From the NCBI RefSeq assembly GCF_014023125.1, contig NZ_CP048914.1, positions 708,698 to 772,697 on the forward strand: a DNA stretch of 64,000 nucleotides, in the 5' to 3' direction. Under the pieces are notes generated by a model. The model searched no databases, was not told the origin of the DNA, and saw only the letters and a program-made list of their open reading frames with translations. Below, one piece after another: positions 4,764 to 21,847 of the stretch. Source of the DNA: Candidatus Xianfuyuplasma coldseepsis (GTDB lineage Bacteria; Bacillota_I; Bacilli_A; Izemoplasmatales; Izemoplasmataceae). The translations under genes and the position numbers were made by a program. The first letter of the stretch is position 1, and every line of letters starts with the position of its first letter.

Positions 4764-4767
4764 ATAG

Positions 4768-4815
4768 TGGCAGGGGTGACAGGATTTGAACCCGTACTAA
4801 CGGTTTTGGAGTCCG
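4768..4815. repeat. attL: 48-bp direct repeat copying the 3' end of tRNA-Trp (47/48 identical to 21773-21820)
   Basis: TGGCAGGGGTGACAGGATTTGAACCCGTACTAACGGTTTTGGAG(T/A)CCG is present at both positions. Confidence 0.85.
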
Positions 4816-6290: not shown

Positions 6291-6483
6291 ATAATGCCTC
6301 AATAACAACTAAAATACTTATTATCATTATGGGTTCTCACAAATAAACAATCAAAAACACTCCTATATCAATGTGATTTAGAAGTGTTTTTGTAATAAAA
6401 ATCCCAGTAGCTTTCTCAAGATTAGTAAAATTAACCTCTAATCCGTAATTGTGAGAGAGTCACAACTATATTGATTATAGATA

Positions 6484-6966
6484 CTATAAATCATCAATTA
6501 TTTGTTTTCTTTTAGTGTTGTATTCATCCTCAGTGATAATACCTTTGTCTCTTAAAGAAGTTAACTTTTCTAGTCGCTCAGTAACGTCAGTATCTTGCTT
6601 CTGAATTTTCGGTTTAAAGTGTTTGGATTTATCTATCCTACTAAATCTTGTGTTCATAGATTCAAGATATTTATCAATCCATCTAGGTGCTGATTGGAAT
6701 CCAACAGATCCATCCATTGAGTCAGCTTGAATATTAACTTTCGTTCCATCTTCAACTCGACTAAAAGTAATTCTTAACTTGGCAGGATTCAATGGAGGAA
6801 AGAATTTCATTGGGCACTTAATTACTATTGAACCAATTCCCCTATTGTTGCTAACTACCTTACCAATGTCGTTACCAGCATTTATGCATAAGTTAAATGC
6901 ATCATCAAATTCTAAAGGTAGGACCATTTCTCTAGTCCCCTTTTTAAACATTGTACCTACTAACAT
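6484..6966 (-). CDS. SHOCT-domain protein (uncharacterised N-domain plus a C-terminal SHOCT oligomerisation motif)
   Basis: The C-terminus LEKLTSLRDKGIITEDEYNTKRKQIIDDL matches the SHOCT pattern. RBS GGAGGTG. Confidence 0.5.
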   Translation of the reverse strand: MLVGTMFKKGTREMVLPLEFDDAFNLCINAGNDIGKVVSNNRGIGSIVIKCPMKFFPPLNPAKLRITFSRVEDGTKVNIQADSMDGSVGFQSAPRWIDKYLESMNTRFSRIDKSKHFKPKIQKQDTDVTERLEKLTSLRDKGIITEDEYNTKRKQIIDDL

Positions 6967-7135
6967 GTTACACCTCCATAATCCTATATTAAACCAGAAG
7001 TAATCATGTAATCAATAAAAACTGCTTACAAAAAGTCCCGCACAGTGTAATTTTTCATAAAAACTTGATCATTCTTCACCAAGAAAGACATTAAAGGGGG
7101 ATGTATTTTCCTTCCCAAACATACTAACTACAGAG

Positions 7136-7471
7136 TTAGACTTCGTTAGCTCCATCAATGTACTTGTCATAATCGATGTCTTTGGTTTTATCAAGACTGA
7201 TAAAAGTAACCTTATCAGCTACAACTGTTAAGTCTTTTACGATGATCTCTAAGTGTGCCTTAACTCCGATCATGCTTCCAACCTCGATATGTTCTTTAAT
7301 AGCATTTGATAAATGCCTAGATAGTCTTACATTAATCTCATCAGTGTGGTTTTCTGTTTCGTTTACATTAGTAACCAACAACGAGATTAATAACTCTTCA
7401 GGATTTCCAGCACTAGTAACAAAGTCATATATACCAGTAACCTTACCTACCAAAATGACTTGATTCAACAT
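7136..7471 (-). CDS. SSB-like OB-fold protein (short)
   Basis: The N-terminus MLNQVILVGKVTG... resembles the SSB start (MxNxVxLxGRL). The start was set at the ATG with an AAAGGAG RBS. The track ORF begins at an upstream TTG. Confidence 0.45.
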   Translation of the reverse strand: MLNQVILVGKVTGIYDFVTSAGNPEELLISLLVTNVNETENHTDEINVRLSRHLSNAIKEHIEVGSMIGVKAHLEIIVKDLTVVADKVTFISLDKTKDIDYDKYIDGANEV

Positions 7472-7559
7472 GGAAATCAACTCCTTTCAACTATAGTTGA
7501 TGTATTAAGTATAACCGGTTAAGCGCCTAAATGCAGCCCTAAAATAGAAAAAGATGATA

Positions 7560-8234
7560 CTATTGAACTGTATCATCTGTATTCTCTGTATTTGACTTCT
7601 TAGGTGATTTTATTTTCTTGATTGTCACTTTCACTATGTTTTGTAGAACCAGAAAATCTTGTTTGACATCTGTCTTTATTACATCTAGAGTTAAGTATCC
7701 TTTACGAACCAGTACTATTGTTACTACACCACTACCTGTTATCGAAATCCAAAAGAATGATAGGAAGATATAATGAGAGCCAAGTAAATCCCATCTAGTA
7801 ACTTCAATGAATGAAGCATAATGATCGTTGGTATAAAATAACTGCTCACTTGAGAAAACAAATCGCTCAGCACCAACATCATCTGTTGTGGCATTGATAT
7901 ATGCTTCAGTATATGAATATCCGTCTGGTAGTAAAACTGGATCTCTAGTATTGTCGTATACAGCATAAACTGTTACATCGTATTCCCCAGGAGCAACTCC
8001 TTGTGACTTAGGCACGTAATTGCTAGGCAATTCATCATACTCTAGTATATACATTGCGACATGATCATAATCAGTATATGTTTTATAACGTCTAGCATTC
8101 ACATCTGTACTCATTGACATAATTAACAGAAAAAGTACCACAGGAAGGAAAATGTATCTTATCCTTCTTCTAAATGACTCTTGTTCTAAACTTAAAAGAA
8201 ACTTGTCTATACTATCTCTAATCTTCTGATTCAT
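7560..8234 (-). CDS. Membrane protein: N-terminal TM, a roughly 120-aa extracytoplasmic domain, and a C-terminal TM plus Lys-rich tail
   Basis: 224 aa. Hydrophobic segments IFLPVVLFLLIMSMS and IFLSFFWISITGSGVVTIVLV. Its start overlaps the upstream gene by 17 nt. Confidence 0.5.
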   Translation of the reverse strand: MNQKIRDSIDKFLLSLEQESFRRRIRYIFLPVVLFLLIMSMSTDVNARRYKTYTDYDHVAMYILEYDELPSNYVPKSQGVAPGEYDVTVYAVYDNTRDPVLLPDGYSYTEAYINATTDDVGAERFVFSSEQLFYTNDHYASFIEVTRWDLLGSHYIFLSFFWISITGSGVVTIVLVRKGYLTLDVIKTDVKQDFLVLQNIVKVTIKKIKSPKKSNTENTDDTVQ

Positions 8235-9420
8235 CCACTTTATCCATAAGGAACTTTACAGCAGATGTAACTGAGTTCAAATTGAATCTATGATTACTAT
8301 CATATGCATTTGGGATACTGAACACTGCTCCAGCATCAAGTAGTACTTTAGCAATAGCAAGTCCATCTTCAAAATTCACTTCTTCTAAGGCTAGATCTAG
8401 AGATTTCTTATCAACTATGTTGATCAATGCTTTGACAGCCATCAAGTCGTTTGCTTTTACTGCATCAATGATTCCATTGGACATCTGATGTTTGTTAAGA
8501 TTCATATTAGATACTCTATCTTGAACGTATGCTCGATCATTAATTTTCAAGAGATTCTCAACAGTCTTTAGATCATAGTTATCATATAGGAACTTAGCAC
8601 ACTCTGTAGCCTCATAATTAATCGCAAAGTCAAACATGTCCTTGTTCACATTATATTTGCTTCTATCGAGGAAGTACTTAAGAATATGTACTACATCTTT
8701 CTCTATTGCAACCTGAACTAGTTTAGGGACACCCCTGTCTCCCATTCTCACTAATCTTAATTCGGGAATAAGTTTTAATGTCTCGTCATTGGTACAAGCT
8801 AGAACGGCAGAAACGTATTCCTTCATATTCTCTGAGAGGTTTGCATACATGGGTAAAATTTTCTTACCTATTCTTAGCGAACCGCTTCTCTCTGATAATC
8901 TAGGTATCTCTAATTTACCATGATGATAACTAACAACATTGCCTTCTTCATCTTTTATCGGAGTACGGAAACTCGACTGTAGTAATTTCAAATCGTTGTT
9001 CTTAATAAGAAATGCAACAAATCGAGGATTGTTATTCAGTGACTCAATGATAAGTTGTTTAGAAAAGAGAAATTTGAATTTCTCTAAATCGTTACTCTCA
9101 ATACAATAGTCTAATAATGTCTTACCATTACTATCAGGCTGTTCAGGAGCCAAATCTGGATTGATTTTATCAATGTCTTGGTTATAAAACTTGCTTAACA
9201 TTGTTTCTCGCTCTGAACCAGCATATAGGATGTCATCCACTTTTACATCTAGAAACTCTGCAATCATCATTAGGTTCGAGATCTCAAATGAACTCTTACC
9301 ACTTAAATTCTGAGATACTGCTTGTTTGGATATACCAAGATAATCAGCCAAATTCTCTTGTGTATGTCCCTTTAATCTGAGTTGCTCTTTGATAAATTTT
9401 CCAATTTCAACTGTGTTCAT
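8218..9420 (-). CDS. XRE-family HTH protein with a large alpha-helical (possibly ankyrin-like) C-terminal domain
   Basis: The HTH is GHTQENLADYLGISKQAVSQNLSGKSSFEISNLMMIAEFL. Ankyrin-like segments include GLAIAKVLLDAGAVF. The start was set at ATG 9420 (MNTVEIGKF), 7 nt after AGGAGG. The track ORF starts further upstream. Confidence 0.6.
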   Translation of the reverse strand: MNTVEIGKFIKEQLRLKGHTQENLADYLGISKQAVSQNLSGKSSFEISNLMMIAEFLDVKVDDILYAGSERETMLSKFYNQDIDKINPDLAPEQPDSNGKTLLDYCIESNDLEKFKFLFSKQLIIESLNNNPRFVAFLIKNNDLKLLQSSFRTPIKDEEGNVVSYHHGKLEIPRLSERSGSLRIGKKILPMYANLSENMKEYVSAVLACTNDETLKLIPELRLVRMGDRGVPKLVQVAIEKDVVHILKYFLDRSKYNVNKDMFDFAINYEATECAKFLYDNYDLKTVENLLKINDRAYVQDRVSNMNLNKHQMSNGIIDAVKANDLMAVKALINIVDKKSLDLALEEVNFEDGLAIAKVLLDAGAVFSIPNAYDSNHRFNLNSVTSAVKFLMDKVDESED

Positions 9421-9445
9421 TTTGATTCCTCCTTTTGATAACTTC

Positions 9446-9474
9446 ATTATAGTCAAGTTGTGATTTATTTGTAA
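9446..9474 (-). promoter_or_regulatory. Promoter (TTACAA-17-TATAAT, minus strand) for the HTH/membrane gene pair
   Basis: The -10 is 9446-9451 and the -35 is 9469-9474, both read on the minus strand, about 20 nt upstream of the RBS. Confidence 0.45.
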
Positions 9475-9668
9475 GCAACTAATAGTTAATTTCTCCTTTA
9501 CAATATAAAAATGATACATAGTAAAGTAAACCACTCATTAACTTTCTTTTACTTAAGCGGTATTAAGACTATGTATCAAACTATTTCGGAAGTAAATTAC
9601 CCCTTATTTTTATTTTATCATTTTACAAAATAAAGTATAACAAAAATTTTCAAATGTCTCTTCTTGTT

Positions 9669-10766
9669 TTAGAATGGCAGATCATCTTCCGACACTTCAA
9701 TATAAACAGGTTTCTTTTCATTAATACGTACTTCAAGTAGTTTGTTTTGAAAAGAATGTATTAATGCATCCAATAATTCTTCATTTTTGTCTTTCAATGC
9801 TTCGTATATTTTATTTAAAACTTTGATATCTTCAACAGGAATTCCAACATTGCATTTAACTTTTATATCTAAGGAATCAAAAAGATCTTCAGCTCTAACA
9901 GAATGTTCAAACCAATTCCTTTTTATCAATATGTTTAGATTGTCTAAAATCTCTTTAATTGATGCAATACTAAATTCATTATAGACATTAAATCGGGGTT
10001 CAAAATGAACATCTCCATTCCAAATTTCTAATCTATCATAAAATATACTTACCATACTATCTAAAGCCTGTTGTCTCAACTCATCATAATTAATCTCTGG
10101 TTTAGTTTTATCTAAAGGAGATTCTTCGATGGAATCTTTGTTTTCTTCATCGTAATCAATGGTTATTTGAAGTTCTTTCTCTAGCTTATTAAGCTGCCCT
10201 CCATCTATTATTGACATTGAAAAATTAGTTTCATCTAGAAACTCAGTTTTCAAAGCATTAGAGTTGTTTAGAAATCCTTTGTCGGATGTTATAAAGTATA
10301 GGTTTTGATATTTCTTCATTTCAAAGTACTCTAGAAGACTAATCCATATCATACTATCTTTAAAACCTTTGTCGCTTGCATTCTCATTGCTGTTGAAAGG
10401 TGGTAACTTATATCGATCTCTTTCAAGTAACTTGTCAAGCATCTTTTTCTTATTGTAGCTGATAACTTTATCCTTAAAATGATGATCAATATATTTATCA
10501 AGTGACTTCTCATAAAGTATTATCTTGTCTTCAAGATTTACTTTATTATTTATCTCAACATACTCTACTAACTCTTCTTTTAGTACCTCTATTTTTTCAT
10601 AAGATTTTTTTATGTCTCTTGCTTTAATGTTCTTAATCTCTTTAACAACAATTTCAGGGACAAAAACATCATATTGTTTTTTACACTCTACTATAAATCT
10701 TGTTATGTAATTGTCCTTTCGTTGTTCTATTAGAAAATTTGTATCTATTACAATAGCATTTTCCAT
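9669..10766 (-). CDS. PIN-like nuclease domain protein (N-terminal PIN-like, roughly 190-aa uncharacterised C-domain)
   Basis: An N-terminal IVIDTNFLI acidic motif, and a later FITSDKGF motif typical of the last PIN strand. 365 aa. Confidence 0.5.
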   Translation of the reverse strand: MENAIVIDTNFLIEQRKDNYITRFIVECKKQYDVFVPEIVVKEIKNIKARDIKKSYEKIEVLKEELVEYVEINNKVNLEDKIILYEKSLDKYIDHHFKDKVISYNKKKMLDKLLERDRYKLPPFNSNENASDKGFKDSMIWISLLEYFEMKKYQNLYFITSDKGFLNNSNALKTEFLDETNFSMSIIDGGQLNKLEKELQITIDYDEENKDSIEESPLDKTKPEINYDELRQQALDSMVSIFYDRLEIWNGDVHFEPRFNVYNEFSIASIKEILDNLNILIKRNWFEHSVRAEDLFDSLDIKVKCNVGIPVEDIKVLNKIYEALKDKNEELLDALIHSFQNKLLEVRINEKKPVYIEVSEDDLPF

Positions 10767-10865
10767 TATATCTCTCCATCCAAGCCTAATTTAAGTATTT
10801 TCATAAACCAGTTCAATCGTTTCACAATGTACTAGTCTTATGAATTTATACTACCTAGCCTTCTT

Positions 10866-11327
10866 CTATTTTCTTTTCACCCATTTTGCCTCACCCTTTT
10901 TTTTAAAGAGTGTAATAAAATATGATTCAACTGCCGGTGCCATCCAATGTGGTTCTATCAAAAAAGATTTATAATATACAAACCTACTAGGAATTGGCAA
11001 AGTCATTATATAGTCATAGATTTTCTTTATGCAAGATTTTGTTTTTGCTTGAGTGTTTTGCACAATGTGAGACTTGATACGTGTGTTAATACCCTTTTTA
11101 TTTTCCTTCTTACCAATATATTGACACCTACCAAGGTTATCAAATATAAAATAGATGTTATTAGAAGAAGGTTCCAAGACCTTTGTATCTTTTCGTTTCA
11201 ATACTTGGTATCTTTTTGGTTTGTTGTAAACCATTCTTTTGAATTTAGATGGATTTTGAATGTCGTTTTCGATTGTGTCGAGAACGTTCTTTATACATGC
11301 AAAACCACTGAAATTGTAATCGGCCAT
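10866..11327 (-). CDS. Small GIY-YIG-like nuclease domain protein
   Basis: NIYFIFDNLGRCQYIGKKENKKGINTRIKSH matches the GIY-x9-YIG-x8-R-x3-H layout. A downstream ESYFI glutamate is present. RBS GAGGT. Confidence 0.5.
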   Translation of the reverse strand: MADYNFSGFACIKNVLDTIENDIQNPSKFKRMVYNKPKRYQVLKRKDTKVLEPSSNNIYFIFDNLGRCQYIGKKENKKGINTRIKSHIVQNTQAKTKSCIKKIYDYIMTLPIPSRFVYYKSFLIEPHWMAPAVESYFITLFKKKGEAKWVKRK

Positions 11328-11346
11328 AAACTACCTCTTCTTAATA

Positions 11347-12162
11347 CTAAAAATCTGCACTTATATGTGAAAGAGAAATTATTTTGGTTAGCAACAAATC
11401 AATAGACTCCTCTTTATACTTTCTTTCTTTCGACCAGTCTCTAATCTTCTTTATGAGAATTTCAATATCGCTTTTATTATCAACAATAATATATTCAATA
11501 TCTTTAATATCAAGTTTTAACTTGAAGGCACTTTTTAAGTCATCACGAATATCTTTGTTGAACAGGTTCATCTGTTCTTCCCAAATGAACAAACTTTTGC
11601 CTGTCGTATCTTCAAACACATTCTTATTCGGTACGAATCTCCATTCATTTTCTAGATAGTACCTAGTAACCTTATCATCTTTCCTGATTATCATTGGTTT
11701 TGAATAAGTTTTCATCAATCTTAGGTAGTTTAGAGCATTTGTTTGTAGATATAAAGAATCTCCATCTAGTACCTCTTTAGACATTTGATATTCTCTTGAA
11801 TCTGTCACTTTTGCCACCAATAATCTCATCTCAGTGTATATAGGCATCTCTGAGCTATAATACCAAAGTGGGGTCAACCCATTATGCAAACCCCAAGATT
11901 GCTTCATTCCAATGGCAATTCCACCATATTTTGTTTTGTGTTCTTTTATGCTTGTTAATGGGATATCACAAAAGCATACCATTGGGAAGGTACTCGATCC
12001 TAGTTCATCTATTAATTCAGAATCAAATAATTCTTCCTCAAACCCAAATAAATCATCAATTTGTTCTTTATTATAGAAGGGTATAAATCCATGTTCTAAA
12101 ATACTTATAATAGTGTCTATATCTCTTGTAAAATGAAACAATGAGTTAGTTTTATAAGCCAT
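11347..12162 (-). CDS. AbiGi-like abortive-infection family protein (tentative). Its start overlaps the hsdR stop.
   Basis: The N-terminus [29 protein letters not shown] resembles the AbiGi family N-terminus as I recall it. ATG 12162 is preferred because it has a GAGGT RBS. It overlaps the hsdR 3' end by about 11 nt. Confidence 0.4.
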
Positions 12163-15100
12163 ATTGTACCTCATTTTCACACACCAATTCAGTTTGTTCC
12201 ATAATCAATTTCACTGATCGATCGTAGTTGTTTGGGTCTGTTGGATCATCTGGTGGATACTTGTATTTCTTAAGTAGCACTTTGATTTCGAATCTCATTT
12301 TAGCTCTAACTGAATCTCTAATGTTCCAGTCTACGGTAGTGCTTGCTTTAATTTTAACAGTTAGCTCTTTGGCAATATCTTTGAGGACATCAATACCCAT
12401 TACCTCTTGAGCCTTGATGTTTGATGCAAGTGCTTGATAGAATGCATATTCATCTTCAGTGAGTCCAGATTCTTTACCAGCTTCAGCAGCTTTAGTAATA
12501 TCTTTTGCTAAGGCTATCAATTCTTCAATGACTATAGTAGAATCAATAAGTCTCTTGTGATATTTAGCTAGGGAATCCTCTAACATTTCAGAGAACAATC
12601 TTGACTGAACCACTGTTTTGCGTGAAAATGCTCTGATCTTACCTTGGATAAGACGTTTGAGAAGTTCAACTGCAACATTCTTATGATCCATGTTCTTGAA
12701 CTCTTCTAAGAACTCATCTGATAGGATAGAGATATCAGGTTTAGCTAAACCTATTTCAGACATAATATCTATAACCTTGTCAGATTTTAAGGACTTAGAA
12801 ATCAATTGATTCAACTCTCTATCGAGTTGGTCTCTTGATTTCTTTTTATTGTTATCAGTAGTAAGTTTGATAATTCCCGCTCTTACAGACTTATAGAAAC
12901 CTATCTCAACATTGTGCTTCTCTGCTGTTTCAGTAGTAGCACAAAGAGAGTAAGCTTTTGTGAGTTCTGAAGTTAGTTTGATATAATCTTCTTTTCTCTT
13001 AATCGATAAACCAACAATATAGTCTATTGTAGCCATAATGATTTTGAGTTTATCTGTCTGTCTACCTTTGAAATATAGAGAGTAGTCGAACCCATGAAGT
13101 AATTCTCGCACCAGTTCCAGTTTCTCCATCATAACAGAAACAGCTAGTTCTGTATCTACTCCAGTTTGTTCTCTATCACTATCTGTATATTGAGATAGAG
13201 CTTTTTTAAGACTTTCTGCAATACCTATATAGTCAACAATAAGTCCACCTTGTTTCTCTTTAAACACACGATTCACTCGTGCGATTGCTTGCATTAAGTT
13301 ATGTCCTTGCATAGGTTTATCAACATACATGGTATGTAAACTTGGAACATCAAATCCTGTAAGCCACATATCACGTACTATTACGAGTTGTAGTTCATCG
13401 TCATTGTCTTTCATACGTCTAGATAATGTATCTCTAGTTTGTTTATTACCGATATGTGTTTGCCAATGCTCAGGATCTGAAGAACTACCTGTCATAACGA
13501 CTTTTATTTTACCTTTCATCAACTCATCTGAAAGCCAATCAGGCCTTAGTGCAATAATTGCATCATGTAGTTCAACAGCAATTCTACGACTCATAGCTAC
13601 GATCATACCTTTTCCAACTTCGGTTTCCATAGAAGCTTGACGTTTTTCAAAATGTTCTACAAGATCTTTAGCTACAACCTTAATTCTAGGTTCAGCTCCA
13701 ACAATTGCTTCTAACCGTGCCCATTTACGTTTGAGACCTTCTTTTTGGACATCTTCTTGGTATTCGGTTATATCATCATAATTCTCATCTATAAGCTCGT
13801 ATTCTTCAGTGAAGTCAATTCTCGCTATGCGGCTTTCGTAGTAGATTTTAACGGTTGTTCCATCTTCCACTGCACGGGTCATATCATAGACGTCAATATA
13901 GTCTCCAAAGACTGCTCTTGTGTTCTTGTCAGTAGTTTCTATTGGTGTACCAGTAAAACCAATATATGAGGCATTTGGAAGGCTGTCACGCATGTGTTTG
14001 GCATAGCCATACTTCTCATATGCCTCTTCTTTTGTTTTTACAACTTCAGCTTTAAAACCATACTGGCTTCGATGTGCCTCATCAGCCATAACAATAACGT
14101 TCTTACGTTCTGTTAAAGGTGTCACTAACCCTTCTTCGTTAGGAGCAAACTTATGTATAGTAGTAAAGATGATACCTCCTGAATCTCTACCATCTAATAG
14201 TTCTTTTAGATGGTCTCTTGATTCTGCTTGTTGTGGATAGGAACGTAATAAATCTTTTGACTTAGAGAACGTAGAGAACAATTGATCATCTAGATCATTT
14301 CGATCTGTTATTACAACAATAGTTGGATTTGATAGTTCTTGTGAGATTACCATCTTACCAGCATAGAAGACCATAGATAGTGATTTACCACTACCTTGTG
14401 TATGCCATATAACTCCAATACGTCTATCCCCATCTTCACTAGTAGCAGTATAAGTGCTTTCTAATGCAGTATTCACAGCATGGTACTGATGGTATCCAGC
14501 TAATATCTTATTGTAGTCATTGTTGTTCTCTTGGAACAAGATGAACTGTTTGATAATATCCATAAAGATATCTTTACGGAACATACCTTTTAGTAAGGTT
14601 TCTAGTTGAGGTAATACTTTAGGAGCAATATTAATACCATCTATTGTACGCCAAGACATATACCATTCTTCATTTGAAGTAATCGTACCAGCTTTAGCTA
14701 CGTGTCCATCACTAATAACATTGAATGCGTTGTAGACAAATAAATTACTAATAGATTTTTGATAGTTCTTGATTTGTCTGTAAGCATGATGAACTGTCAC
14801 CTTCTCATCCGAAGGTGTTTTAAGTTCGAAGACAACCAATGGTAAACCATTGACAAAAAGAACTATATCAGGACGTTTTTCAACTCTGTTCTCAACAACA
14901 GTGAATTGATTCACAGCAAGGAAGTCATTGTTCTCAATATTCTCAAAGTCAAAGAGTTGGATGTTTGGATATACTGTGCTTCCATCCTCTTCTTTATGTA
15001 GGACAGTAACTCCCTCATTAATCATCTTATGAAAGGCATGATTATTAGCAATCAAAGATACTTGTTTAGGAATGGTGATCTCTCTAATCGCATCTTCAAT

Positions 15101-15304
15101 GACTTGTCTTGGAACTGTATCATTAATACGAAGAAGCGCTTCTCGTAAGCGCTCAATTAATATTACTTCTTCATATGAATCCCTTTCAGGATATTCCCCG
15201 TCAAATGAGATATTAGGACCAAACTCAATATTGTATCCTAATTCTTCTAGCCACTGTAAAGCAGCTTCCTCTACATCCGACTCATAAAATACTTTTACTC
15301 CCAT
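12152..15304 (-). CDS. hsdR: Type I restriction enzyme R subunit (HsdR)
   Basis: About 1050 aa with a DEAH box ([10 protein letters not shown]) and SF2 helicase motifs. Operon position after hsdM/hsdS. ATG at 15304 with a GAGGGG RBS. The track start at 15319 is a TTG. Confidence 0.9.
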
Positions 15305-15308
15305 TTCA

Positions 15309-16634
15309 TCACCCCTCAATAGGTACTTCTATCTCTCCACTCATTAGTTTTGGTAATAGTGTATCTCTAGTTATGGTTAACACTTCATTCTCTTTACCAT
15401 TCTGCTGTATTTGTTCATAAGTATCCAAATAAAAACTAGCTAGTCTGTCTATCCATTCTTTGTTTGGGATTACAATCTTGTATTCATTCAATATAAACTT
15501 CAAATCAAAATTCTTTATTCCAGTAGTCCCATTCTCATAATTGAAGAAAACATTATTGTTATACAAGTATTCAAAAGTAAGACTTATATAAGGTGATAAA
15601 TTTATGTCTTTTGGCTCAATAGCTCTACAAAAATTAGTGCATATAACCTTATCATTATATCTATGTATAAATTCTTTTGATATCAAAGCTGTTCTACCAG
15701 TCGACTGTTTAGGACTTCCCCCCGATATCTCAACTACTATATCTCCAGCTTTCAATTTCTTCTTGAGAAAGTTCTTATTAAGTATATATCTGGTTGGGCA
15801 TTTTCCTTTATCCCCAACTTTGATTGAGTTTATATCTGCACCTCTAATACACACAACTTCAGAAGTATAGTTACCAGTTATTGCTTCTTTACCCCAGTCA
15901 CCTGCAATCGTTGTAGCTACAAGATCTCCTAGACTCCCGACTTCCCATCCTCTAGGAATTAATCCCAAGTCACTTTCTATCATTTCTCCACCACTAGATT
16001 TATATGGTTCTCCATCTTCATTAGGATACTCAAAATCAACAAACCATTGTTTATATAATGCTTGTGCCATTTCTTCAAGGTTCTTATTGATTTTGTTGTT
16101 AAGTTCTATTTTGTCATCAAGTGATGATAAGATGTTTGATATTGTTTTTTGTTCCGCTAAAGGTGGTAAAACAACATTAATATTTTTAATGTTTTTTATA
16201 GGTAATTTTGCTTGTACCGCCCCTACAGTTCCCATTCTAATTTCTTGAATACCATTGGGTGAGTTCAAGTAATAATAAAGAAATCTATAGTCAATTTTCT
16301 CAGAATGATTTGTTAATTTAACGCAATTTTCTGTCAAACTTGCATTATCCAATGTTTTACCTACTATACCCGTTAAACCTATAGTCCCAACTATGGATAA
16401 TAGTACATCTTTATAATTAGTAATGTACCGTGAAATATTACTAAATGTCTCCTCAATAATATATTGAATCCCATCAAATTTCTCAAGTTTTGTAATATTA
16501 TTCAAATCTCGCACACGAATATATGGATGTGTAGTTTTATAATCTACTAAAGAATGTCCTTTAGGTAATCTCTTCCCGCCCTTTATCTCAACTATTTCTT
16601 CTAATTTTACATTTCTCCAATCATCATAACTCAT
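15309..16634 (-). CDS. hsdS: Type I R-M specificity subunit (HsdS), two TRDs
   Basis: Conserved central [14 protein letters not shown] and C-terminal LLPKLMSGE motifs. Overlaps hsdM and abuts hsdR. Confidence 0.9.
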
Positions 16635-18111
16635 AACCTATTCCCCTTAAGTTCTCCTTGATTTTTTCCTCAAGAGATTTAGATTCTTCAAATAGGTCTG
16701 ATAATTCTGAAGTAAGTCTATCCATTTTCTCTTCAAATGGAATACCATCATCTTCCTCTTCTTCAATACCTACATAACGTCCAGGAGTTAAAACATAGTC
16801 ATGTAACTTAATTTCTTCAATTGTAGATGATTTGCAGAATCCATCAACATCTTCATAATTTTCTTCATTTTTCCAATTATGGTAAGTAGTGTAGATTTGT
16901 TCTATCTCTTCATCTTTTAATTCTCTATGTTTTCGCGTTTCCATATATCCCATTTTACGAGCATCTATAAATAATACTTTATCTTTTCTACCGTTCTTAT
17001 TTTTGGAAACAAACCATAAGGATACAGGAATAGCCACATCATAGAATAGTTGTGAAGGCATAGCTACAATACAGTCTACTAATCCTTCTTCTAGGATTGA
17101 TTTACGGATATCGTACTCCTCACTTCTTGATGTTGATAAAGAACCATTAGCTAAAACAAATCCAGCAGTACCTCTTGGACTTAATTTACTTATCATATGT
17201 GAAATCCATGCATAGTTCGCATTTGTTTTTGGTGGAACTCCCCATTTCCATCTAACATCATCTAATAAATGAGGTTGTCCCCAGTCTTTAATATTAAAAG
17301 GTGGATTGGCTAATATATAATCTACTTTCAATGTTTTATGTTGATCGTTAGTAAATGTATCTCCATCTCTTTCACCAAGATTTGCATCAAGTCCTCTGAT
17401 TGCAAGATTCATTTTTGCTAGTCTCCATGTAGTAGCTACATATTCTTGTCCGTAAATTGAGATATCACCAAGTCTACCTTGATGTTCTTCAACAAACTTT
17501 GCAGATTGCACAAACATACCACCACTACCACAACAAGGGTCATATACTCTACCTTTATAAGGTTCAATCATATTTACTAATAATTTAACAATACTGGGTG
17601 GTGTATAAAACTCACCTTCCGTACTACCAAACTTCTTAAGGAAGTACTCATATACTCTACCTAACACATCTTTAGCTCTTGCTTCCTTACTTCCTACGTT
17701 AAAAGAGAATAGGTCTACCAACTCACCTAATCGTGTCTTATCTAGAGCTGGTCTTGCATAGTTCTTAGGTAAGACATTTTTTAATGGAACATTCTCACGC
17801 TCAATAAGGATCATTGCATTATCGATTACTTGTCCGATAGTAGGTTGTTTCGCTTGTGACTTAATATAATCCCATCTAGCTTCTTTCGGTACGAAGAATA
17901 CATTCTCAGACTCGTATGCATCTCGATCTTCTTCCATACCAGGATAGACTTGCTTCACTTCGTTATATCGTTCTTCAAAGGAATCAGAGATGTACTTCAA
18001 AAAAACAAGCCCCAATATAACGTGTTTATATTCAGAGCTTTCAATATTACCCCTTAACTTATCTGCCATTTCCCACAGTTTATTCTCGAATCCTAAATTT
18101 ACTTTTGCCAT
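16624..18111 (-). CDS. hsdM: Type I R-M N6-adenine DNA methyltransferase (HsdM)
   Basis: NPPFN catalytic motif and the HsdM N-terminal domain. 495 aa. Confidence 0.9.
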   Translation of the reverse strand: MAKVNLGFENKLWEMADKLRGNIESSEYKHVILGLVFLKYISDSFEERYNEVKQVYPGMEEDRDAYESENVFFVPKEARWDYIKSQAKQPTIGQVIDNAMILIERENVPLKNVLPKNYARPALDKTRLGELVDLFSFNVGSKEARAKDVLGRVYEYFLKKFGSTEGEFYTPPSIVKLLVNMIEPYKGRVYDPCCGSGGMFVQSAKFVEEHQGRLGDISIYGQEYVATTWRLAKMNLAIRGLDANLGERDGDTFTNDQHKTLKVDYILANPPFNIKDWGQPHLLDDVRWKWGVPPKTNANYAWISHMISKLSPRGTAGFVLANGSLSTSRSEEYDIRKSILEEGLVDCIVAMPSQLFYDVAIPVSLWFVSKNKNGRKDKVLFIDARKMGYMETRKHRELKDEEIEQIYTTYHNWKNEENYEDVDGFCKSSTIEEIKLHDYVLTPGRYVGIEEEEDDGIPFEEKMDRLTSELSDLFEESKSLEEKIKENLRGIGYEL

Positions 18112-18128
18112 AATTAGTACCTTCCTCT

Positions 18129-18488
18129 CTATTTATATACTTCCCTTAAAGATTTTCCTTTGCTATTTACTATTTCATCCCATGCTTTTGTAGTTATGTA
18201 CCCTAAAAAAATACATGCAGCTCTATTGGGTGATGAAAAAACCTCATCAGTTTGTAATTCGTAATAGTTTTGATCATACTCTTGAAGAACCCCTTTGTTT
18301 AGTAAATCTCTTCTTGAGCGTTCAATCCAATTACAGTCAGTCCATTTTTTAGTAATTATAGGTTCTCTTTTCATCAAGGAGCCTTTATGTACTATAACTT
18401 CATTATCTTTACCTTTGGTTTCTCCCGTACCTATATAACTTATAGTAGCAATTAACATACCTTTGTTATTTTTTAGATAAAAATCCAC
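18129..18488 (-). CDS. Small protein leading the hsd operon, DUF4357-like (tentative)
   Basis: 119 aa. The C-terminal VFSSPNRAACIFLGYITTKAWDEI resembles, from memory, the DUF4357 motif seen upstream of hsdM genes. GTG start with a GGTGGTGAG RBS. Confidence 0.4.
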   Translation of the reverse strand: MDFYLKNNKGMLIATISYIGTGETKGKDNEVIVHKGSLMKREPIITKKWTDCNWIERSRRDLLNKGVLQEYDQNYYELQTDEVFSSPNRAACIFLGYITTKAWDEIVNSKGKSLREVYK

Positions 18489-18528
18489 TTAACTCACCAC
18501 CATCTTATTCAGGTTCTTTTCAATTAAA

Positions 18529-18557
18529 ATTATATCAAAAAATGAACGTAAGTTAAA
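18529..18557 (-). promoter_or_regulatory. Putative promoter of the hsd operon (extended -10 TGaTATAAT on the minus strand, weak -35 TTTAAC)
   Basis: Reverse complement ...TTTAAC-17-TATAAT, about 40 nt upstream of GTG 18488. Confidence 0.35.
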
Positions 18558-18706
18558 TAGCTAGTATAAATGAATAATTGCAAGTCTGCAGAAACGTCAT
18601 TGTTAAGCCATCTATCCATTAAATCCCTATCGAAACCTTCCGTATACCAAGATCAGACTGGATTACATATATACTATAGAGTCTGAAAGCTATCTCAAAT
18701 ACGGCA

Positions 18707-18735
18707 TGGACAAACCTGATCCTGCCGCGTATAAT
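18707..18735 (+). promoter_or_regulatory. Promoter TGGACA-17-TATAAT directed toward the serine recombinase gene (about 130-nt leader)
   Basis: -35 at 18707-18712 and -10 at 18730-18735. Confidence 0.45.
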
Positions 18736-18869
18736 GTGGTACACAAATGAAATAAACCACTAATTTTTGCCCTCTCAATTATACTGAGCATTAATTAGTG
18801 AATTAATTCTAATTTGTTGTTGAGTGCACTATAAAAGGATAAATGCACACCATAAAGGAGGGTATCTAA

Positions 18870-19430
18870 ATGAGAATAGGATATATGAGAGTATCAACAG
18901 TCGCTCAAAACTTAGATACACAGAAAGCGGCTCTGGAATCATATGGAGTAGAAAGAATCTTTGAAGAGAAAGCGTCTGGAAGAAACATTGAAAGACCAGT
19001 CCTTAAGGAGTTGCTTAAGTTCATCAGATCAGGGGACACGCTTGTAATATATGATTTATCTAGACTGGGTAGGACAGTACATCAAGTTGTAAAATTATTA
19101 GATGACTTCATAAAAAGAAACATTGGTTTCGTATCGCTTAAGGAATCACTGGACATAACCACACCGATGGGTAAAGCAATGGCACACATAATTGCAGTGT
19201 TTAATCAAATGCAAGTGGATGTTCAAAATGAAAAGACTAGAGAAGGACTACTAATCGCAAAAGCAAATGGTAAAAAACTTGGGAGAAAAGCCATTACTCA
19301 AGATAAGATTCTAATGATACAAGCATTATGTAAAGAAGGGTATTCGAATCAAGAAGTTGCAGATAAATTAGGAGTCTCAAGAAGAACTGTAATTAACTAC
19401 AAGAAGGGCTCTAAACAGATAAAAAACTAA
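18870..19430 (+). CDS. Small serine recombinase (resolvase/invertase family)
   Basis: MRIGYMRVSTVAQNLDTQ N-terminal catalytic motif (S10), and a C-terminal HTH (GYSNQEVADKLGVSRRTV). 186 aa. Confidence 0.85.
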   Translation: MRIGYMRVSTVAQNLDTQKAALESYGVERIFEEKASGRNIERPVLKELLKFIRSGDTLVIYDLSRLGRTVHQVVKLLDDFIKRNIGFVSLKESLDITTPMGKAMAHIIAVFNQMQVDVQNEKTREGLLIAKANGKKLGRKAITQDKILMIQALCKEGYSNQEVADKLGVSRRTVINYKKGSKQIKN

Positions 19431-19446
19431 TGTTGAGGTGTAAACT

Positions 19447-19716
19447 ATGGACGAAGATAAAAGAGCATTTCAGGCTAGTGAAAATCAGCTGCTATATAAA
19501 AAAACTTTAAGTTCAGACAACTTCATTATTGATCAAATAAAACAAGCATATCTATTAAGTCTTCCATATCTACCTATGGATTCCTTAGAAGAGTCTGAGA
19601 AGATCGCTTCATTGTTCGATTTATTGAAGAGGAACATGGCTTATAAGAAGGGGTTAATGGATCAGACTGTTAGTCTTATTACTGAGGATGCATTTAATGA
19701 ATGGTTCAAAACTTAA
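19447..19716 (+). CDS. Hypothetical small protein (89 aa) co-transcribed with the recombinase
   Basis: An RBS GAGGTG 6 nt upstream. No motif. Confidence 0.4.
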   Translation: MDEDKRAFQASENQLLYKKTLSSDNFIIDQIKQAYLLSLPYLPMDSLEESEKIASLFDLLKRNMAYKKGLMDQTVSLITEDAFNEWFKT

Positions 19717-19749
19717 AACAATGCTTAAAACTAAAAAAGATGGGCACTA

Positions 19750-20196
19750 CTACATCCATCTTTCTTTTAGTTTGTGTGAAGCTGACAAAATATTAGCAAC
19801 CTTTAGCATCAATGCCGATTTGATACTAATCAAATCTGCTGACAGTTTATTTAGTTTCTCAGTATCTGCTTCAGAGATACTGTTTTTATTTACTGAATCT
19901 TCCTCCAACCTTTTATGGTGTTCCACAAAATCATATGTTTTCATATCAAATAACACGCCTAACTCAGTAATTGTGAGGTCGCTAAAATCACTGTCAGGAA
20001 TGTCTTTAATGAAAAAGGCTTGAACGGGATAATGGTAGAAATCTGCTAGCCTTTCCAAAATATCAAAAGGAATATTCCTATCACCTAATTCATATCTACT
20101 GTAGTTTTGTATCCTGATATCTAAGTGTTGAGCTATATCCTTTTGCCTGAATCCTTTTTGTTTCCTTAGTGTTCTAAGATTGTTGCATATGTTCAT
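19750..20196 (-). CDS. XRE-family HTH transcriptional regulator (repressor-like)
   Basis: HTH_3 motif LRKQKGFRQKDIAQHLDIRIQNYSRYELGDRNIPFDILERLADFY. Confidence 0.8.
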   Translation of the reverse strand: MNICNNLRTLRKQKGFRQKDIAQHLDIRIQNYSRYELGDRNIPFDILERLADFYHYPVQAFFIKDIPDSDFSDLTITELGVLFDMKTYDFVEHHKRLEEDSVNKNSISEADTEKLNKLSADLISIKSALMLKVANILSASHKLKERWM

Positions 20197-20229
20197 ATAA
20201 TCTCACCTCATCTAAATTATAACATCCTA

Positions 20230-20305
20230 TCACCATTTTGGTGAATATTTCTTCAAACCTATACACCCCTGAATTGAAAAACTAATTTATTCACCGTTTT
20301 GGTGA
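20230..20305. promoter_or_regulatory. Two copies of the 15-bp palindrome TCACC-N5-GGTGA (20230-20244 and 20291-20305), centres 61 bp apart. Candidate operators of the XRE repressor in the XRE/int divergent region.
   Basis: TCACCATTTTGGTGA and TCACCGTTTTGGTGA are both perfect 5-N5-5 inverted repeats. Confidence 0.45.
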
Positions 20306-20450
20306 TTTTATTGGAAAGAGCACATGAAATGTCCTGTATTTAAACCGCATAATAAAGCCATCTTGTTAAAATGGGCTTTTTTGGCTCAAAAAAAACACAC
20401 CTCTAGTATATACGTAGGTGTATAGTGCTTGACACATCCAACAATAAAAA

Positions 20451-21683
20451 ATGAAGGAGTTGATAAAAGTGAAAATGAATCAAGCCCTAGATAATTTTTT
20501 AAAGCTGAAAGAGGCAACGTTTAAACCTGAAACTGTAAGATACTATAAAGGAAAGATACCTACGATTAAGAAGTTCATGGGTAATCTAGATGTTGAAGAA
20601 GTAACAGATGTTGACATTGCAGACTTTCTACTCAAACTCAAAGAAAGAAACCCGGAAATCTCCAAACGAACACAAAGGAAATACGTTGACATCATCATGA
20701 GTATAGTCAACAAAGGAAAAAAAGAAGCTGATAAACTTAAATTTACCAGACCAAAACCTGTTTTGAAAAAGATTAAAAAGGTATCAGATGAAAACATAGC
20801 TCTGATACTTAATTACTATGTATCAAATCTTAGCTATGCAAATAATCACAAGTACTACTTGTTAATCAATCTTCTTCTTGATACAGGTGTCCGCATTAAT
20901 GAACTAGTAAACATTAAGATGAAGAACATCAATCTATCTATGAATAGCATCCATCTAGATGTGACCAAGACAGATTCAGATCGAACTGTGTATTTTAGTG
21001 ATAGGACAAGACAAATACTTCTAAGCTACATTAACAAACACATTGATGGTCACGAATATCTCTTCTACAGCCAGGATGGTAAGGGTCATATTCATAGAGA
21101 CTCTGTATACAAATCTATAGCGAGATTGCAAAAAAGACTAAACATAAAACAATCAATAAGTCCACATAAGTTTCGTCATGCTTTTGCAACAAAGCTTCTT
21201 AGAAAAACAGGTGACATCGAAGTGGTAAGACAATTGCTTGGGCATAAGCATCTTGAAACCACACAAATATATCTAGACTATGAAGACGAGTACTTGAAGA
21301 AGGTCTACGATAAAGCAATGAATAACAATGGTATGTATAATGCCAAAAATCAAAATAAGGAGGATCAAGATTTGAGCAAAGCTAAAGTACTTCAAGATCA
21401 TTATCAAGTGAAATGTGATGTGTGTAACACAGACATAAACACTCCAAAAGATGACATACAGATATATTGTCCAAAATGTGGATCAGTTATCACAGTGTTA
21501 CACGATAAAGACAATCATGCTTATGCAATTGAAACCGGAGTTCTTGTTGCATCTTCATTTCTCCCTGGAGAACCTAAGAAATATGTTATACACAAAGATG
21601 GTAATCGAGGTAACAATAACGTTGCAAATCTACAATGGAGCGATCACCCCGACTATCCAAGCCAAGATAAACAAATCAACTAG
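20451..21683 (+). CDS. int: Tyrosine site-specific integrase with a C-terminal Zn-ribbon plus HNH_3-like extension
   Basis: R (TGVRINEL), HKFRHAF, and LGHKHLETTQIYLDY catalytic motifs. The C-terminal roughly 120 aa contain CDVC...CPKC and HKDGNRGNNNVANLQW. The true start is possibly GTG 20469 or ATG 20475, after AAGGAG. Confidence 0.85.
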   Translation: MKELIKVKMNQALDNFLKLKEATFKPETVRYYKGKIPTIKKFMGNLDVEEVTDVDIADFLLKLKERNPEISKRTQRKYVDIIMSIVNKGKKEADKLKFTRPKPVLKKIKKVSDENIALILNYYVSNLSYANNHKYYLLINLLLDTGVRINELVNIKMKNINLSMNSIHLDVTKTDSDRTVYFSDRTRQILLSYINKHIDGHEYLFYSQDGKGHIHRDSVYKSIARLQKRLNIKQSISPHKFRHAFATKLLRKTGDIEVVRQLLGHKHLETTQIYLDYEDEYLKKVYDKAMNNNGMYNAKNQNKEDQDLSKAKVLQDHYQVKCDVCNTDINTPKDDIQIYCPKCGSVITVLHDKDNHAYAIETGVLVASSFLPGEPKKYVIHKDGNRGNNNVANLQWSDHPDYPSQDKQIN

Positions 21684-21772
21684 GTAATACATAAAAATGG
21701 TATGTACTAGCGGTCATTTCAAGACTAGAGCAAATAAAAAAGCAAACCTAATGGCTTGCCTAAGCTCTTAAG

Positions 21773-21847
21773 TGGCAGGGGTGACAGGATTTGAACCCGT
21801 ACTAACGGTTTTGGAGACCGCTGTGCTACCATTGACACCACACCCCT
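21773..21847 (-). tRNA. tRNA-Trp: tRNA-Trp (CCA anticodon), the integration target
   Basis: Reverse complement AGGGGTGTGGTGTCAATGGTAGCACAGCGGTCTCCAAAACCGTTAGTACGGGTTCAAATCCTGTCACCCCTGCCA. The acceptor stem pairs, and the anticodon loop is CTCCAAA. Confidence 0.9.

What the first reader, a model, noticed from the sequence alone, without database searches (positions are those of the whole stretch)
20230..20305. Two perfect TCACC-N5-GGTGA palindromes 61 bp apart between the XRE repressor and the integrase
Identical half-sites spaced about six helical turns apart, immediately upstream of the repressor gene, look like cooperative operator sites. They would control the divergent repressor and the int/recombinase transcription. 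A third palindrome (CACCT-N13-AGGTG) lies at about 20398-20420.
Basis: seen in the sequence. Interest (0 to 1): 0.5.

Follow-up and report, generated by a model that had tools for sequence, protein, structure and literature searches.

The report
Repressor operator pair on a genomic island
The two identical 15-bp palindromes are very probably the DNA sites where a mobile island's own helix-turn-helix repressor binds to shut off its own promoter and probably the integrase gene, which is an ordinary kind of switch seen here in a little-studied bacterial lineage.

Summary
TCACCATTTTGGTGA (20230-20244) and TCACCGTTTTGGTGA (20291-20305) are the only TCACC-N5-GGTGA matches in 64 kb, against 0.02 expected.

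They lie upstream of a 148-aa XRE/HTH_3 gene (19750-20196, minus strand). That gene is divergent from a tyrosine integrase on a ~17-kb tRNA-Trp defence island of Candidatus Xianfuyuplasma coldseepsis.

The proximal palindrome contains the -35 hexamer of the strongest promoter in the region, TTCACC-18-TGtTATAAT, which drives the XRE gene.

The main evidence is comparative. In three independent related islands the XRE proteins are only 28-35% identical to this one. There the motif (one mismatch or fewer) occurs only in the XRE 5' intergenic region. In one of them, related sites lie inside a 12/12 consensus promoter for a rep-int operon. A fourth relative has a degenerate copy in the same promoter register. 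361 kb of control loci show no such placement.

So these are operators of an island master repressor. Autorepression is well supported. Control of int is inferred by analogy. Six-turn cooperativity is not conserved (28-38 bp spacing elsewhere). The third palindrome has a different spacing and is not conserved.

This is a new member of a known kind, of low-to-moderate interest. Binding itself remains untested.

The parts
20230..20244 (.). Proximal operator O1, TCACCATTTTGGTGA. It covers about -21 to -35 of the predicted XRE promoter.
   Evidence: exact match. (the -35 hexamer TTCACC at 20245..20240 overlaps it). (same register in L005 and L092: palindrome, 8 nt, TATAAT).
20291..20305 (.). Distal operator O2, TCACCGTTTTGGTGA, 61 bp upstream of O1. 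It lies at about -82 to -96 of the XRE promoter.
   Evidence: A second or third site is also present in L005, L010 and L011, but at other spacings.
20216..20245 (-). Predicted sigma-A type promoter of the XRE gene: -35 TTCACC, 18-nt spacer, extended -10 TGtTATAAT. The predicted transcription start is about 20209, immediately before the RBS GAGGTGA (20209..20203).
   Evidence: 10/12 plus TG. (score 11.6; only 16 of about 128,000 positions in the window score 12 or more, and 65 score 10 or more). Contig L101 ends at 20190, consistent with an mRNA 5' end here (the RNA-seq origin of the contig is an inference).
19750..20196 (-). XRE/Cro-CI type repressor gene (148 aa). The protein has an N-terminal five-helix HTH domain followed by two long C-terminal helices.
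   Evidence: HTH_3 1.4e-10. (AlphaFold2 pLDDT 92; helices 76-102 and 109-147). (closest solved relatives: 9sf2_A at 7e-15, named as the phage Phi106 repressor, and the ICEBs1 ImmR DNA-binding domain at 1e-12). (PHROG transcriptional regulator and repressor families).
20475..21683 (+). Tyrosine integrase (402 aa as annotated by NCBI), divergent from the XRE gene and the presumed regulatory target. It carries a C-terminal HNH-like extension at 21330-21683.
20381..20409 (+). Best candidate rightward promoter for int: TTGGCT-17-TAGTAT. The evidence is weak.
   Evidence: score 8.6; 221 positions in the window score 8 or more.
20396..20421 (.). Third palindrome ACACCT-N13-AGGTGT, which brackets the -10 of the candidate int promoter. 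It is probably not an XRE operator of the same type.
   Evidence: unique in the window. (absent from relatives). (hairpin -6.9 kcal/mol, z = -1.0).
21773..21847 (-). tRNA-Trp, the integration site of the island. Its 3' portion is repeated at 4747-4815, the other island end.

Best explanation
The two palindromes are operator sites of the island-encoded XRE (Cro/CI-type) repressor.

Each 15-bp site has two TCACC half-sites whose centres are about 10 bp apart. One XRE dimer would bind per site, with the helix-turn-helix domains in successive major grooves and the two long C-terminal helices providing dimerisation. This binding mode is inferred.

The proximal site covers the -35 hexamer and spacer of the XRE gene's own strong extended -10 promoter. 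Bound repressor would therefore exclude RNA polymerase, giving negative autoregulation. This is shown only by geometry and by conservation of that geometry.

The distal site most likely raises local occupancy, or blocks rightward transcription that would otherwise reach the integrase gene. That would keep the ~17-kb tRNA-Trp defence island integrated. This step is inferred by analogy with relatives in which the same motif lies inside the promoter of a rep-int operon.
For: 1. Significance. There are 2 perfect sites against 0.02 expected in 64 kb, and no other site with one mismatch or fewer.

2. Phylogenetic footprint. In the window and three independent loci whose XRE proteins are 28-35% identical (alignment A3), all 6 hits with one mismatch or fewer fall in the XRE 5' intergenic regions. 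Those regions make up 1.9% of 98 kb (naive P about 5e-11; joint chance for the three relatives about 7e-6 using the control-locus background rate).
- L005: TCACCGAATTGGTAA and TCACCATTTTGGTTA.
- L010: TCACCAAAAAGGTGA, plus GCACCAAATCGGTGC and TAACCAATTTGGTGC.
- L011 (and L094, which carries the same region): TCACCGAAATGGTGA, plus weaker sites.

3. Pattern of conservation. The half-site sequence is conserved while the central 5 bp and the flanks vary. No nucleotide similarity between these intergenic regions was detectable by blastn. This is the pattern of a protein-binding site, not of a hairpin.

4. Promoter register. The layout is conserved as (T)TCACC, TTACC or TTGCC, then N5, then GGTGA or GGTAA, then 8 nt, then TATAAT, with a TG extension, in the window, L005 and L092.

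5. Target promoter in a relative. In L010 one site fills the spacer of a 12/12 TTGACA-17-TATAAT promoter for Rep_trans-int, and another lies just downstream of its -10 hexamer.

6. Recognition helix. It is conserved as Q-x-Y-S/N-R-Y-E. The one relative with P in place of Q (P0062, L092) has the most degenerate half-sites.

7. Negative control. 80 loci encoding more distant HTH proteins with the same signature (361 kb) show 16 scattered hits. None lies in the 500 bp immediately upstream of the HTH gene.

8. Only shared neighbour. The XRE gene is the only gene always adjacent to the motif. In L005 the resolvase and integrase are 1.6-2.2 kb away, and no resolvase gene was called in L010, L011 or L092.

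9. Protein kind. HTH_3; the closest solved relatives are mobile-element repressors (the phage Phi106 repressor and ICEBs1 ImmR); the structure model is confident.
Against: - No binding or expression experiment exists.
- Only four or five related loci could be recovered. The family is rare, so the footprint rests on a small sample.
- Inter-site spacing and helical phasing are not conserved (61, 28, 38 and 30 bp), so cooperative looping is unproven.
- In this window no good rightward promoter overlaps either site, so regulation of int is indirect at best.
- In L005 the homologue precedes hsdM-hsdS rather than facing int. The family's regulatory target is therefore not fixed.
- No anti-repressor or ImmA-type protease partner was found next to the gene.
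Confidence: 0.82

Rival explanations
1. The palindromes act at the RNA level, as small intrinsic terminators or attenuator hairpins. They would stop read-through between the resolvase/XRE region and int.
For: The consensus scan lists both as terminator-like: 6-pair stems with 3 G-C pairs, followed by T-rich tails. Each folds at about -6 kcal/mol, better than shuffled sequence (z about -2.6 on the plus strand). Contigs L001-L003, which are probably RNA-seq derived, show the region is transcribed in some samples.
Against: The stems are only 5-6 bp and about -6 kcal/mol, which is weak for a terminator. In relatives the half-site sequence is conserved rather than covarying, and single mismatches weaken pairing (GGTAA and GGTTA in L005). 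The sites sit upstream of promoters and within promoter spacers, not at gene ends. Contigs L001-L003 run straight through both sites.
Confidence: 0.05
2. They are recombinase sites: res or crossover subsites for the 186-aa serine resolvase, or accessory (arm-type) sites for the tyrosine integrase.
For: Two recombinase genes flank the region. Recombinase sites are commonly short inverted repeats.
Against: The island's attachment repeat was identified elsewhere, at the tRNA-Trp 3' end, about 1.5 kb away. In L005 the motif lies 1.6 kb from the resolvase gene and 2.2 kb from int, but 34-76 bp from the XRE start. No resolvase gene was called in L010, L011 or L092. The integrase of L092 showed only the generic Phage_integrase domain plus a different N-terminal SAM domain. 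A 5-bp spacer is too short for a tyrosine-recombinase core, which needs 6-8 bp by established knowledge.
Confidence: 0.04
3. The XRE protein is a restriction-modification controller (C protein, HsdC-like) and the palindromes are its C-boxes. Their role would be to time expression of the island's type I R-M system rather than island mobility.
For: In the syntenic relative L005 the XRE homologue lies directly upstream of hsdM-hsdS, with 95 bp and no terminator between them. Its two sites overlap that operon's promoter. HsdC regulators inside type I hsd operons are described for Mollicutes (PMC5282649). C.BclI, C.AhdI and C.Esp1396I are among the structural matches for the HTH domain.
Against: In this window the XRE gene is separated from the hsd operon by the convergent resolvase and 89-aa genes. 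The hsd operon has its own leader gene and 5' region, and no motif copy lies there. In L010, L011 and L092 the homologue faces rep-int or int genes. The protein is 148 aa with a C-terminal helical domain, unlike the small single-domain C proteins described in PMC5282649. The motif differs from every C-box and HsdC motif listed in that paper.
Confidence: 0.07

Closest known systems
ICEBs1 immunity repressor ImmR and its operators in the immR/xis intergenic region (Bacillus subtilis)
   Same: Both are XRE-family HTH repressors encoded next to int on an integrative element inserted in a tRNA gene. Both have multiple repeated sites in a promoter-bearing intergenic region, with autoregulation and repression of excision or transfer genes. 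The ImmR side of this comparison is from my own knowledge of the ICEBs1 literature. The ImmR DNA-binding domain (7t8i) is the second-best solved sequence match (E=1.4e-12).
   Different: In ICEBs1 immR is co-transcribed with immA and int, and ImmA cleaves ImmR. Here the XRE gene is monocistronic and divergent from int, and no ImmA-like protease gene was found among the neighbours scanned. The C-terminal domain and the operator sequence are different.
Temperate-phage CI-type repressors with palindromic operators, including the phage Phi106 repressor of arbitrium phages (PDB 9sf2)
   Same: 9sf2_A is the best solved sequence match, over residues 3-116 including the start of the C-terminal region (E=7e-15; named). 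Both have palindromic operators overlapping -35/-10 elements and a repressor gene divergent from the genes it represses.
   Different: There is no phage here. The island carries type I R-M, AbiGi and PIN genes and no structural genes. No AimX-like or other antirepressor was identified. Only two operators are present, 61 bp apart.
R-M controller proteins and C-boxes, including Mollicutes HsdC (PMC5282649)
   Same: Both are small HTH_3 regulators that autoregulate through paired repeats overlapping their own promoter. The L005 homologue has the HsdC gene order, C then hsdM then hsdS.
   Different: The motif TCACC-N5-GGTGA differs from GACT/AGTC C-boxes, (GTGTTAN5)2, (AACGAATN12)3 and GGACN5GTCC. 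In this window the gene is not in the hsd operon. The protein has an extra helical C-terminal domain.

Membership tests
XRE / Cro-CI helix-turn-helix (Pfam HTH_3) regulators | A five-helix HTH_3 domain scoring above the curated threshold | tested here: met
   HTH_3 scores 41.5 bits against a cut-off of 23, E=1.4e-10. The AlphaFold2 model shows five N-terminal helices at pLDDT above 90.
Mobile-element immunity repressor with operator module (CI/ImmR-like) | The repressor gene is adjacent to, and divergent from, integration, excision or replication genes on an integrated element | tested here: met
   The XRE gene (minus strand) is divergent from int (plus strand), 1.5 kb from the tRNA-Trp attachment site. 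Homologues face int in L092 and rep-int in L010 and L011.
Mobile-element immunity repressor with operator module (CI/ImmR-like) | Repeated operator sites overlap core promoter elements in the intergenic region | tested here: met
   The proximal site overlaps the -35 of P_xre. The motif and its register are conserved in relatives.
Mobile-element immunity repressor with operator module (CI/ImmR-like) | The repressor physically binds the sites and represses transcription | not testable with these tools
   This needs EMSA, footprinting or reporter assays.
Mobile-element immunity repressor with operator module (CI/ImmR-like) | An induction mechanism exists: a self-cleaving S24 domain, an ImmA-type protease or an antirepressor | tested here: not met
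   The protein has no S24 or peptidase domain. Pfam scans of 14 other island ORFs found no ImmA/IrrE-type protease or known antirepressor. PHROGs found nothing for the 89-aa neighbour. An unrecognised partner cannot be excluded.
R-M controller (C) protein with C-box | The regulator gene lies within, or immediately upstream of, the R-M operon it controls | tested here: not met
   In the window the XRE gene is separated from hsdM by the opposite-strand resolvase and 89-aa genes and by DUF4357. The feature is met only in relative L005.
R-M controller (C) protein with C-box | The binding motif matches a described C-box or HsdC motif | tested here: not met
   TCACC-N5-GGTGA differs from every motif listed in PMC5282649.
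Intrinsic (Rho-independent) terminator | A stable G+C-rich stem followed by a U-tract at the 3' end of a transcription unit | tested here: not met
   The stems are 5-6 bp at about -6 kcal/mol. They lie upstream of, or inside, promoters. The sequence is conserved rather than covarying in relatives.
Site-specific recombination sites (res or att) | The site lies next to the recombinase gene or at the element boundary, with a crossover spacer of suitable length | tested here: not met
   The att repeats are at 4747-4815 and 21752-21820. In L005 the motif is more than 1.6 kb from both recombinase genes.

The most novel reading that the evidence does not exclude
The XRE gene with its TCACC-N5-GGTGA operators may be a portable switch cassette of Izemoplasmatales tRNA-Trp defence islands. 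The same repressor family would gate island mobility in some islands (the rep-int or int promoters, as in L010, L011 and this window) and the type I R-M operon in others (L005, arranged like HsdC).

In this window the two operators also lie in the path of a resolvase-to-int read-through transcript that converges on P_xre. Repressor roadblock combined with convergent-promoter interference would then form a bistable excision switch.
Probability: 0.15. Interest if true: 0.5.

Novelty: new member of a known kind. Interest (0 to 1): 0.3.

Why it matters
The result gives a defined operator motif, and a testable regulator-operator pair, for integrative defence islands carrying type I R-M or BREX cargo. 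The lineage, Izemoplasmatales (free-living wall-less bacteria), has essentially no described transcription-factor sites.

Practically, it offers a handle for asking what triggers excision of these tRNA-Trp islands. It is also a possible repressor/operator part for genetic tools in the one cultured representative, strain zrk13.

Conceptually it is the familiar repressor-operator logic of phages and integrative and conjugative elements.

Tried and rejected
- **Plasmid and phage DNA searches.** Searches with window 19400-21700 (megablast against plasmids, blastn against phages) found nothing.
- **Word-index protein search with the XRE protein.** It returned only the protein itself. The exhaustive representative search was needed to see the family.
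- **Related-locus scans.** The first scan of genome contigs found no relative, and a 13-sequence alignment was too diverse to search with. The second scan returned 80 distant HTH loci, which served only as a negative control.
- **Other scans and look-ups.** The viral-contig scan gave one unrelated phage locus, L095. Integrase relatives P0154, P0158 and P0159 lay on short contigs with no XRE gene and no motif. L093 (P0132) has only 94 bp upstream of the gene and no clear motif.
- **Rfam.** The region matched only the two tRNAs. Folding 20300-20475 gave nothing better than shuffled sequence (z = +0.6).
- **Apparent terminator at 20354-20385.** It is not significant (z = -0.8).
- **Weaker motif copies near the hsd/resolvase promoter region or elsewhere on the island.** None were found.
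- **The 89-aa neighbour as a conserved partner.** It has no family hit and no similarity to the 89-aa ORF of L009.
- **Invertible-DNA explanation for the contig breaks near 18770.** I considered and dropped this, because contig L101 runs straight through that point.

Full report
**1.

Reading the sequence shows TCACCATTTTGGTGA at 20230-20244 and TCACCGTTTTGGTGA at 20291-20305, 61 bp start-to-start. A search for TCACC-N5-GGTGA on both strands of the 64-kb window returns exactly these two sites. Shuffles expect 0.02, and none of 100 shuffles had two or more. Allowing one mismatch adds nothing. Two mismatches give 17 scattered hits, mostly in coding sequence, which is about the chance number. The 'third palindrome' is real as ACACCT-N13-AGGTGT at 20396-20421. 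Its CACC/GGTG cores are 15 nt apart rather than 5.

**2. Context**

- The gene to the left (19750-20196, minus strand, 148 aa) is an HTH_3/XRE protein (E=1.4e-10).
- The gene to the right (20475-21683, plus strand) is a tyrosine integrase.
- Further left are an 89-aa ORF and a 186-aa serine resolvase, both on the plus strand and convergent with the XRE gene. Beyond them lies a type I R-M operon.
- tRNA-Trp and tRNA-Tyr follow the integrase directly.
- The 3' part of tRNA-Trp is repeated at 4747-4815, with a more degenerate copy at 4053-4121.

The locus is therefore the right end of a ~17-kb island integrated in tRNA-Trp. Its cargo includes hsdRMS, an AbiGi-like gene, a PIN-domain gene, a second HTH protein, and SSB-like and RecA-like genes.

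The XRE protein is identical to a protein of Candidatus Xianfuyuplasma coldseepsis. This is the cultured Izemoplasma strain zrk13 (PMC8397711).

**3. Promoter geometry**

The consensus scan finds TTCACC-18-TATAAT with a TG extension on the minus strand (20245..20216; 10/12). With a simple weight-matrix score it reaches 11.6. It is the best site on either strand of 20150-20500. Of about 128,000 positions in the window, only 16 score 12 or more and 65 score 10 or more.

Its -35 hexamer is the left half-site of the proximal palindrome. The palindrome ends 8 nt before the -10 hexamer. The predicted transcription start, about 20209, lies at the 5' edge of the GAGGTGA ribosome-binding site. A protein bound at 20230-20244 would occupy roughly -21 to -35.

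No comparable rightward promoter overlaps either palindrome. The best plus-strand candidate is TTGGCT-17-TAGTAT at 20381-20409 (score 8.6), about 100 bp beyond the distal site. The third palindrome brackets its -10 hexamer.

**4. Comparative evidence, the main result**

The XRE protein has no close relatives in the word-indexed search. An exhaustive HMMER search finds a thin family of 128-163-aa proteins that share both the HTH domain and the C-terminal region. Loci for five members were recovered.

- **L005** (with L004 and L006-L008; a metagenome relative with the same copA/tRNA-Trp chromosomal context, about 68% nucleotide identity in flanking genes). The island carries a 69%-identical integrase, a resolvase and a 141-aa XRE homologue. 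Its only two motif hits with one mismatch or fewer in 15.8 kb are TCACCGAATTGGTAA and TCACCATTTTGGTTA. They lie 34-76 bp upstream of the XRE start. The proximal one sits in TTTACC-18-TGaTATAAT.
- **L010** (an Izemoplasmatales contig). A 188-aa homologue is divergent from a Rep_trans-int operon. The 165-bp intergenic region holds TCACCAAAAAGGTGA, overlapping the -35 of the XRE promoter. It also holds GCACCAAATCGGTGC, exactly within the spacer of a 12/12 TTGACA-17-TATAAT rightward promoter, and TAACCAATTTGGTGC just downstream of that promoter's -10 hexamer.
- **L011 and L094.** A 163-aa homologue is divergent from a Rep (Viral_Rep plus helicase)-integrase pair, next to a BREX island. The intergenic region holds a perfect TCACCGAAATGGTGA plus weaker copies: TCACCTTTCTGGCAA, AAACCTTTTTGGTTA and TCACCTATTTGGAAA.
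- **L092** (152-aa homologue, divergent from another integrase). A degenerate TTGCCGAAACGGTAA sits in TTGCCG-17-TGgTATAAT.

Anchored on the -10 hexamer, the window, L005 and L092 share one layout. It reads: half-site, N5, half-site, 8 nt, TATAAT, 6-7 nt, GAGGTG.

Across the window, L005, L010 and L011, all six hits with one mismatch or fewer fall in the 1.9% of sequence that is XRE 5' intergenic DNA. For the three relatives the joint chance probability is about 7e-6, using the background rate from the control loci.

As a control, 80 loci encoding more distant HTH proteins with the same Q-x-Y-S/N-R-Y-E signature (361 kb) contain 16 scattered hits. None lies in the 500 bp immediately upstream of the HTH gene.

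The intergenic regions share no blastn-detectable similarity. What is conserved is the half-site sequence, not the spacer, the flanks or mere complementarity.

**5. What this excludes**

- *RNA hairpins or terminators.* The stems are 5-6 bp at about -6 kcal/mol. They lie upstream of, or inside, promoters. They are conserved in sequence rather than by covariation.
- *Recombinase sites.* The att repeats are elsewhere. In L005 the motif is 1.6-2.2 kb from both recombinase genes but adjacent to the XRE gene. No resolvase gene was called in L010, L011 or L092.
- *A host global regulator.* There is no other copy in about 47 kb of flanking chromosome in the window, nor in the chromosomal part of L005. 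The motif travels with the XRE gene into different element types.

The XRE protein is the only common neighbour of the motif.

**6. The protein**

AlphaFold2 with the 13-sequence family alignment gives a confident model (pLDDT 92). It shows a five-helix HTH domain, a short less-confident linker, and two long helices at 76-102 and 109-147. That is a plausible dimerisation hairpin, which suits a 15-bp two-fold symmetric site.

The best solved sequence relatives are 9sf2_A (E=7e-15, reaching into the C-terminal region) and the ICEBs1 ImmR DNA-binding domain (E=1.4e-12). One search names 9sf2 as the phage Phi106 repressor in complex with AimX. R-M controller proteins, DdrO, SinR and CylR2 match the HTH domain only. 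PHROG matches are transcriptional regulators and repressors.

**7. Transcript hints (inference)**

Five Logan contigs from runs SRR12681134, SRR12681135, SRR12834251 and SRR12908979 are 100% identical to the window, and four of the five are short, 1.9-9.2 kb. Their ends fall at 20190, 18773 and 18763-18786. The other ends fall in the att repeat (21800) or inside int (21210 and 20671).

The strain's transcriptome reads were deposited in autumn 2020 (PMC8397711). I could not verify which run belongs to which project, so the RNA-seq origin is an inference.

- The 20190 end lies 19 nt inside the predicted P_xre start.
- The 18763 end lies about 21 nt inside the start predicted from TGGACA-17-TATAAT (18707-18735), upstream of the resolvase gene.

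If these are RNA-seq assemblies, they support the P_xre assignment. They also show that in three runs the operator region is transcribed contiguously from the resolvase gene into int. That would allow a model in which bound XRE blocks read-through into int.

**8. Mechanism, with status of each step**

- *Shown by sequence and comparison:* two identical sites; the proximal one overlaps the -35 and spacer of P_xre; the motif co-occurs with the XRE family.
- *Inferred:* one XRE dimer binds per site; the gene is negatively autoregulated; the distal site adds occupancy or blocks rightward transcription towards int; repression keeps the island integrated.
- *Not supported:* a conserved six-turn phasing (spacings elsewhere are 28, 38 and 30 bp); membership of the third palindrome in the set.
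- *Unknown:* the inducing signal. No S24 domain, ImmA-type protease or antirepressor was found.

**9. Comparison with known systems**

The module works like the CI/ImmR class of mobile-element immunity repressors. It fails one membership feature, a recognisable induction partner.

It is not a C-protein/C-box system in this window, because the gene is not in the hsd operon and the motif differs. However, the L005 homologue has the HsdC-type position upstream of hsdM-hsdS. That arrangement was already described for Mollicutes, with other motifs (PMC5282649).

**10. Verdict**

This is a genuine and statistically solid pair of operator-type sites for an island repressor. It is a new member of a known kind, of low-to-moderate interest. 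Direct binding and the effect on int remain to be tested.

Noticed in passing
window 4747-4815 and 4053-4121 versus 21752-21820: The 3' part of tRNA-Trp is repeated twice upstream, at 86% and 68% identity to the 4747-4815 reference copy. This delimits a ~17-kb island (about 4815-21773) plus an older remnant of roughly 700 bp, which suggests serial integrations at this tRNA.
   Followed up: partly
window 21330-21683 (C-terminal 117 aa of the integrase): The integrase carries a zinc-ribbon / HNH-endonuclease-like C-terminal extension (PHROG HNH families down to E=1e-8; Pfam HNH_3 24.5 bits, just under the cut-off). Its 285-aa relatives lack this extension. The window has about 375 bp here that L005 does not.
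   Followed up: partly
L005 3101-3526 (XRE homologue) and 1263-3005 (hsdM): In the syntenic metagenomic relative, the XRE homologue sits directly upstream of hsdM-hsdS on the same strand, with 95 bp and no terminator between them. This is an HsdC-like controller arrangement for a type I R-M system, but with the TCACC-N5-GGT motif rather than any published HsdC motif.
   Followed up: partly
window 18763-18786, 18773 and 20190 (ends of contigs L001-L003, L102 and L101): Public short-read assemblies identical to the window break at these positions, about 20 nt inside predicted transcription starts: P_xre, and TGGACA-17-TATAAT at 18707-18735 for the resolvase gene. They behave like RNA-seq contigs of strain zrk13. 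Three of them run without a break from the resolvase gene, antisense through the XRE gene, into int.
   Followed up: partly
window 18749-18770 / 18788-18809: A 22-nt imperfect inverted repeat (77% complementary) lies between the divergent hsd operon and the resolvase gene, where a res-type or regulatory site might be expected. It also coincides with the contig breaks, but contig L101 reads through it.
   Followed up: partly
L011 1-10861 and 11225-14609: A related integrase (P0155, 46% identical) ends a BREX type 1 gene cluster. Beside it is a second unit: an XRE homologue, a Rep (Viral_Rep plus helicase) gene and another integrase, next to the tRNA. This looks like tandem defence and replicative islands at the same tRNA in another Izemoplasmatales genome.
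   Followed up: no
L005 3603-4357: About 750 bp with no called gene lie between the operators and an SSB-like ORF. There is no credible Rfam match. The function is unknown.
   Followed up: partly
window 20325-20432: A 35-codon ORF (MKCPVFKPHNKAILLKWAFLAQKKHTSSIYVGV) with a poorly spaced ribosome-binding site spans the weak hairpin at 20354-20385 and the third palindrome. It is probably not a gene, and I did not look for it in the relatives.
   Followed up: no
window 8218-9534: The same island carries a second, much larger HTH_3 protein (438 aa, with a weak ankyrin-repeat match). It lies next to a 224-aa ORF with a weak, below-cut-off ribonuclease match and a PIN-domain gene. It may be a regulator or a defence component.
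   Followed up: no
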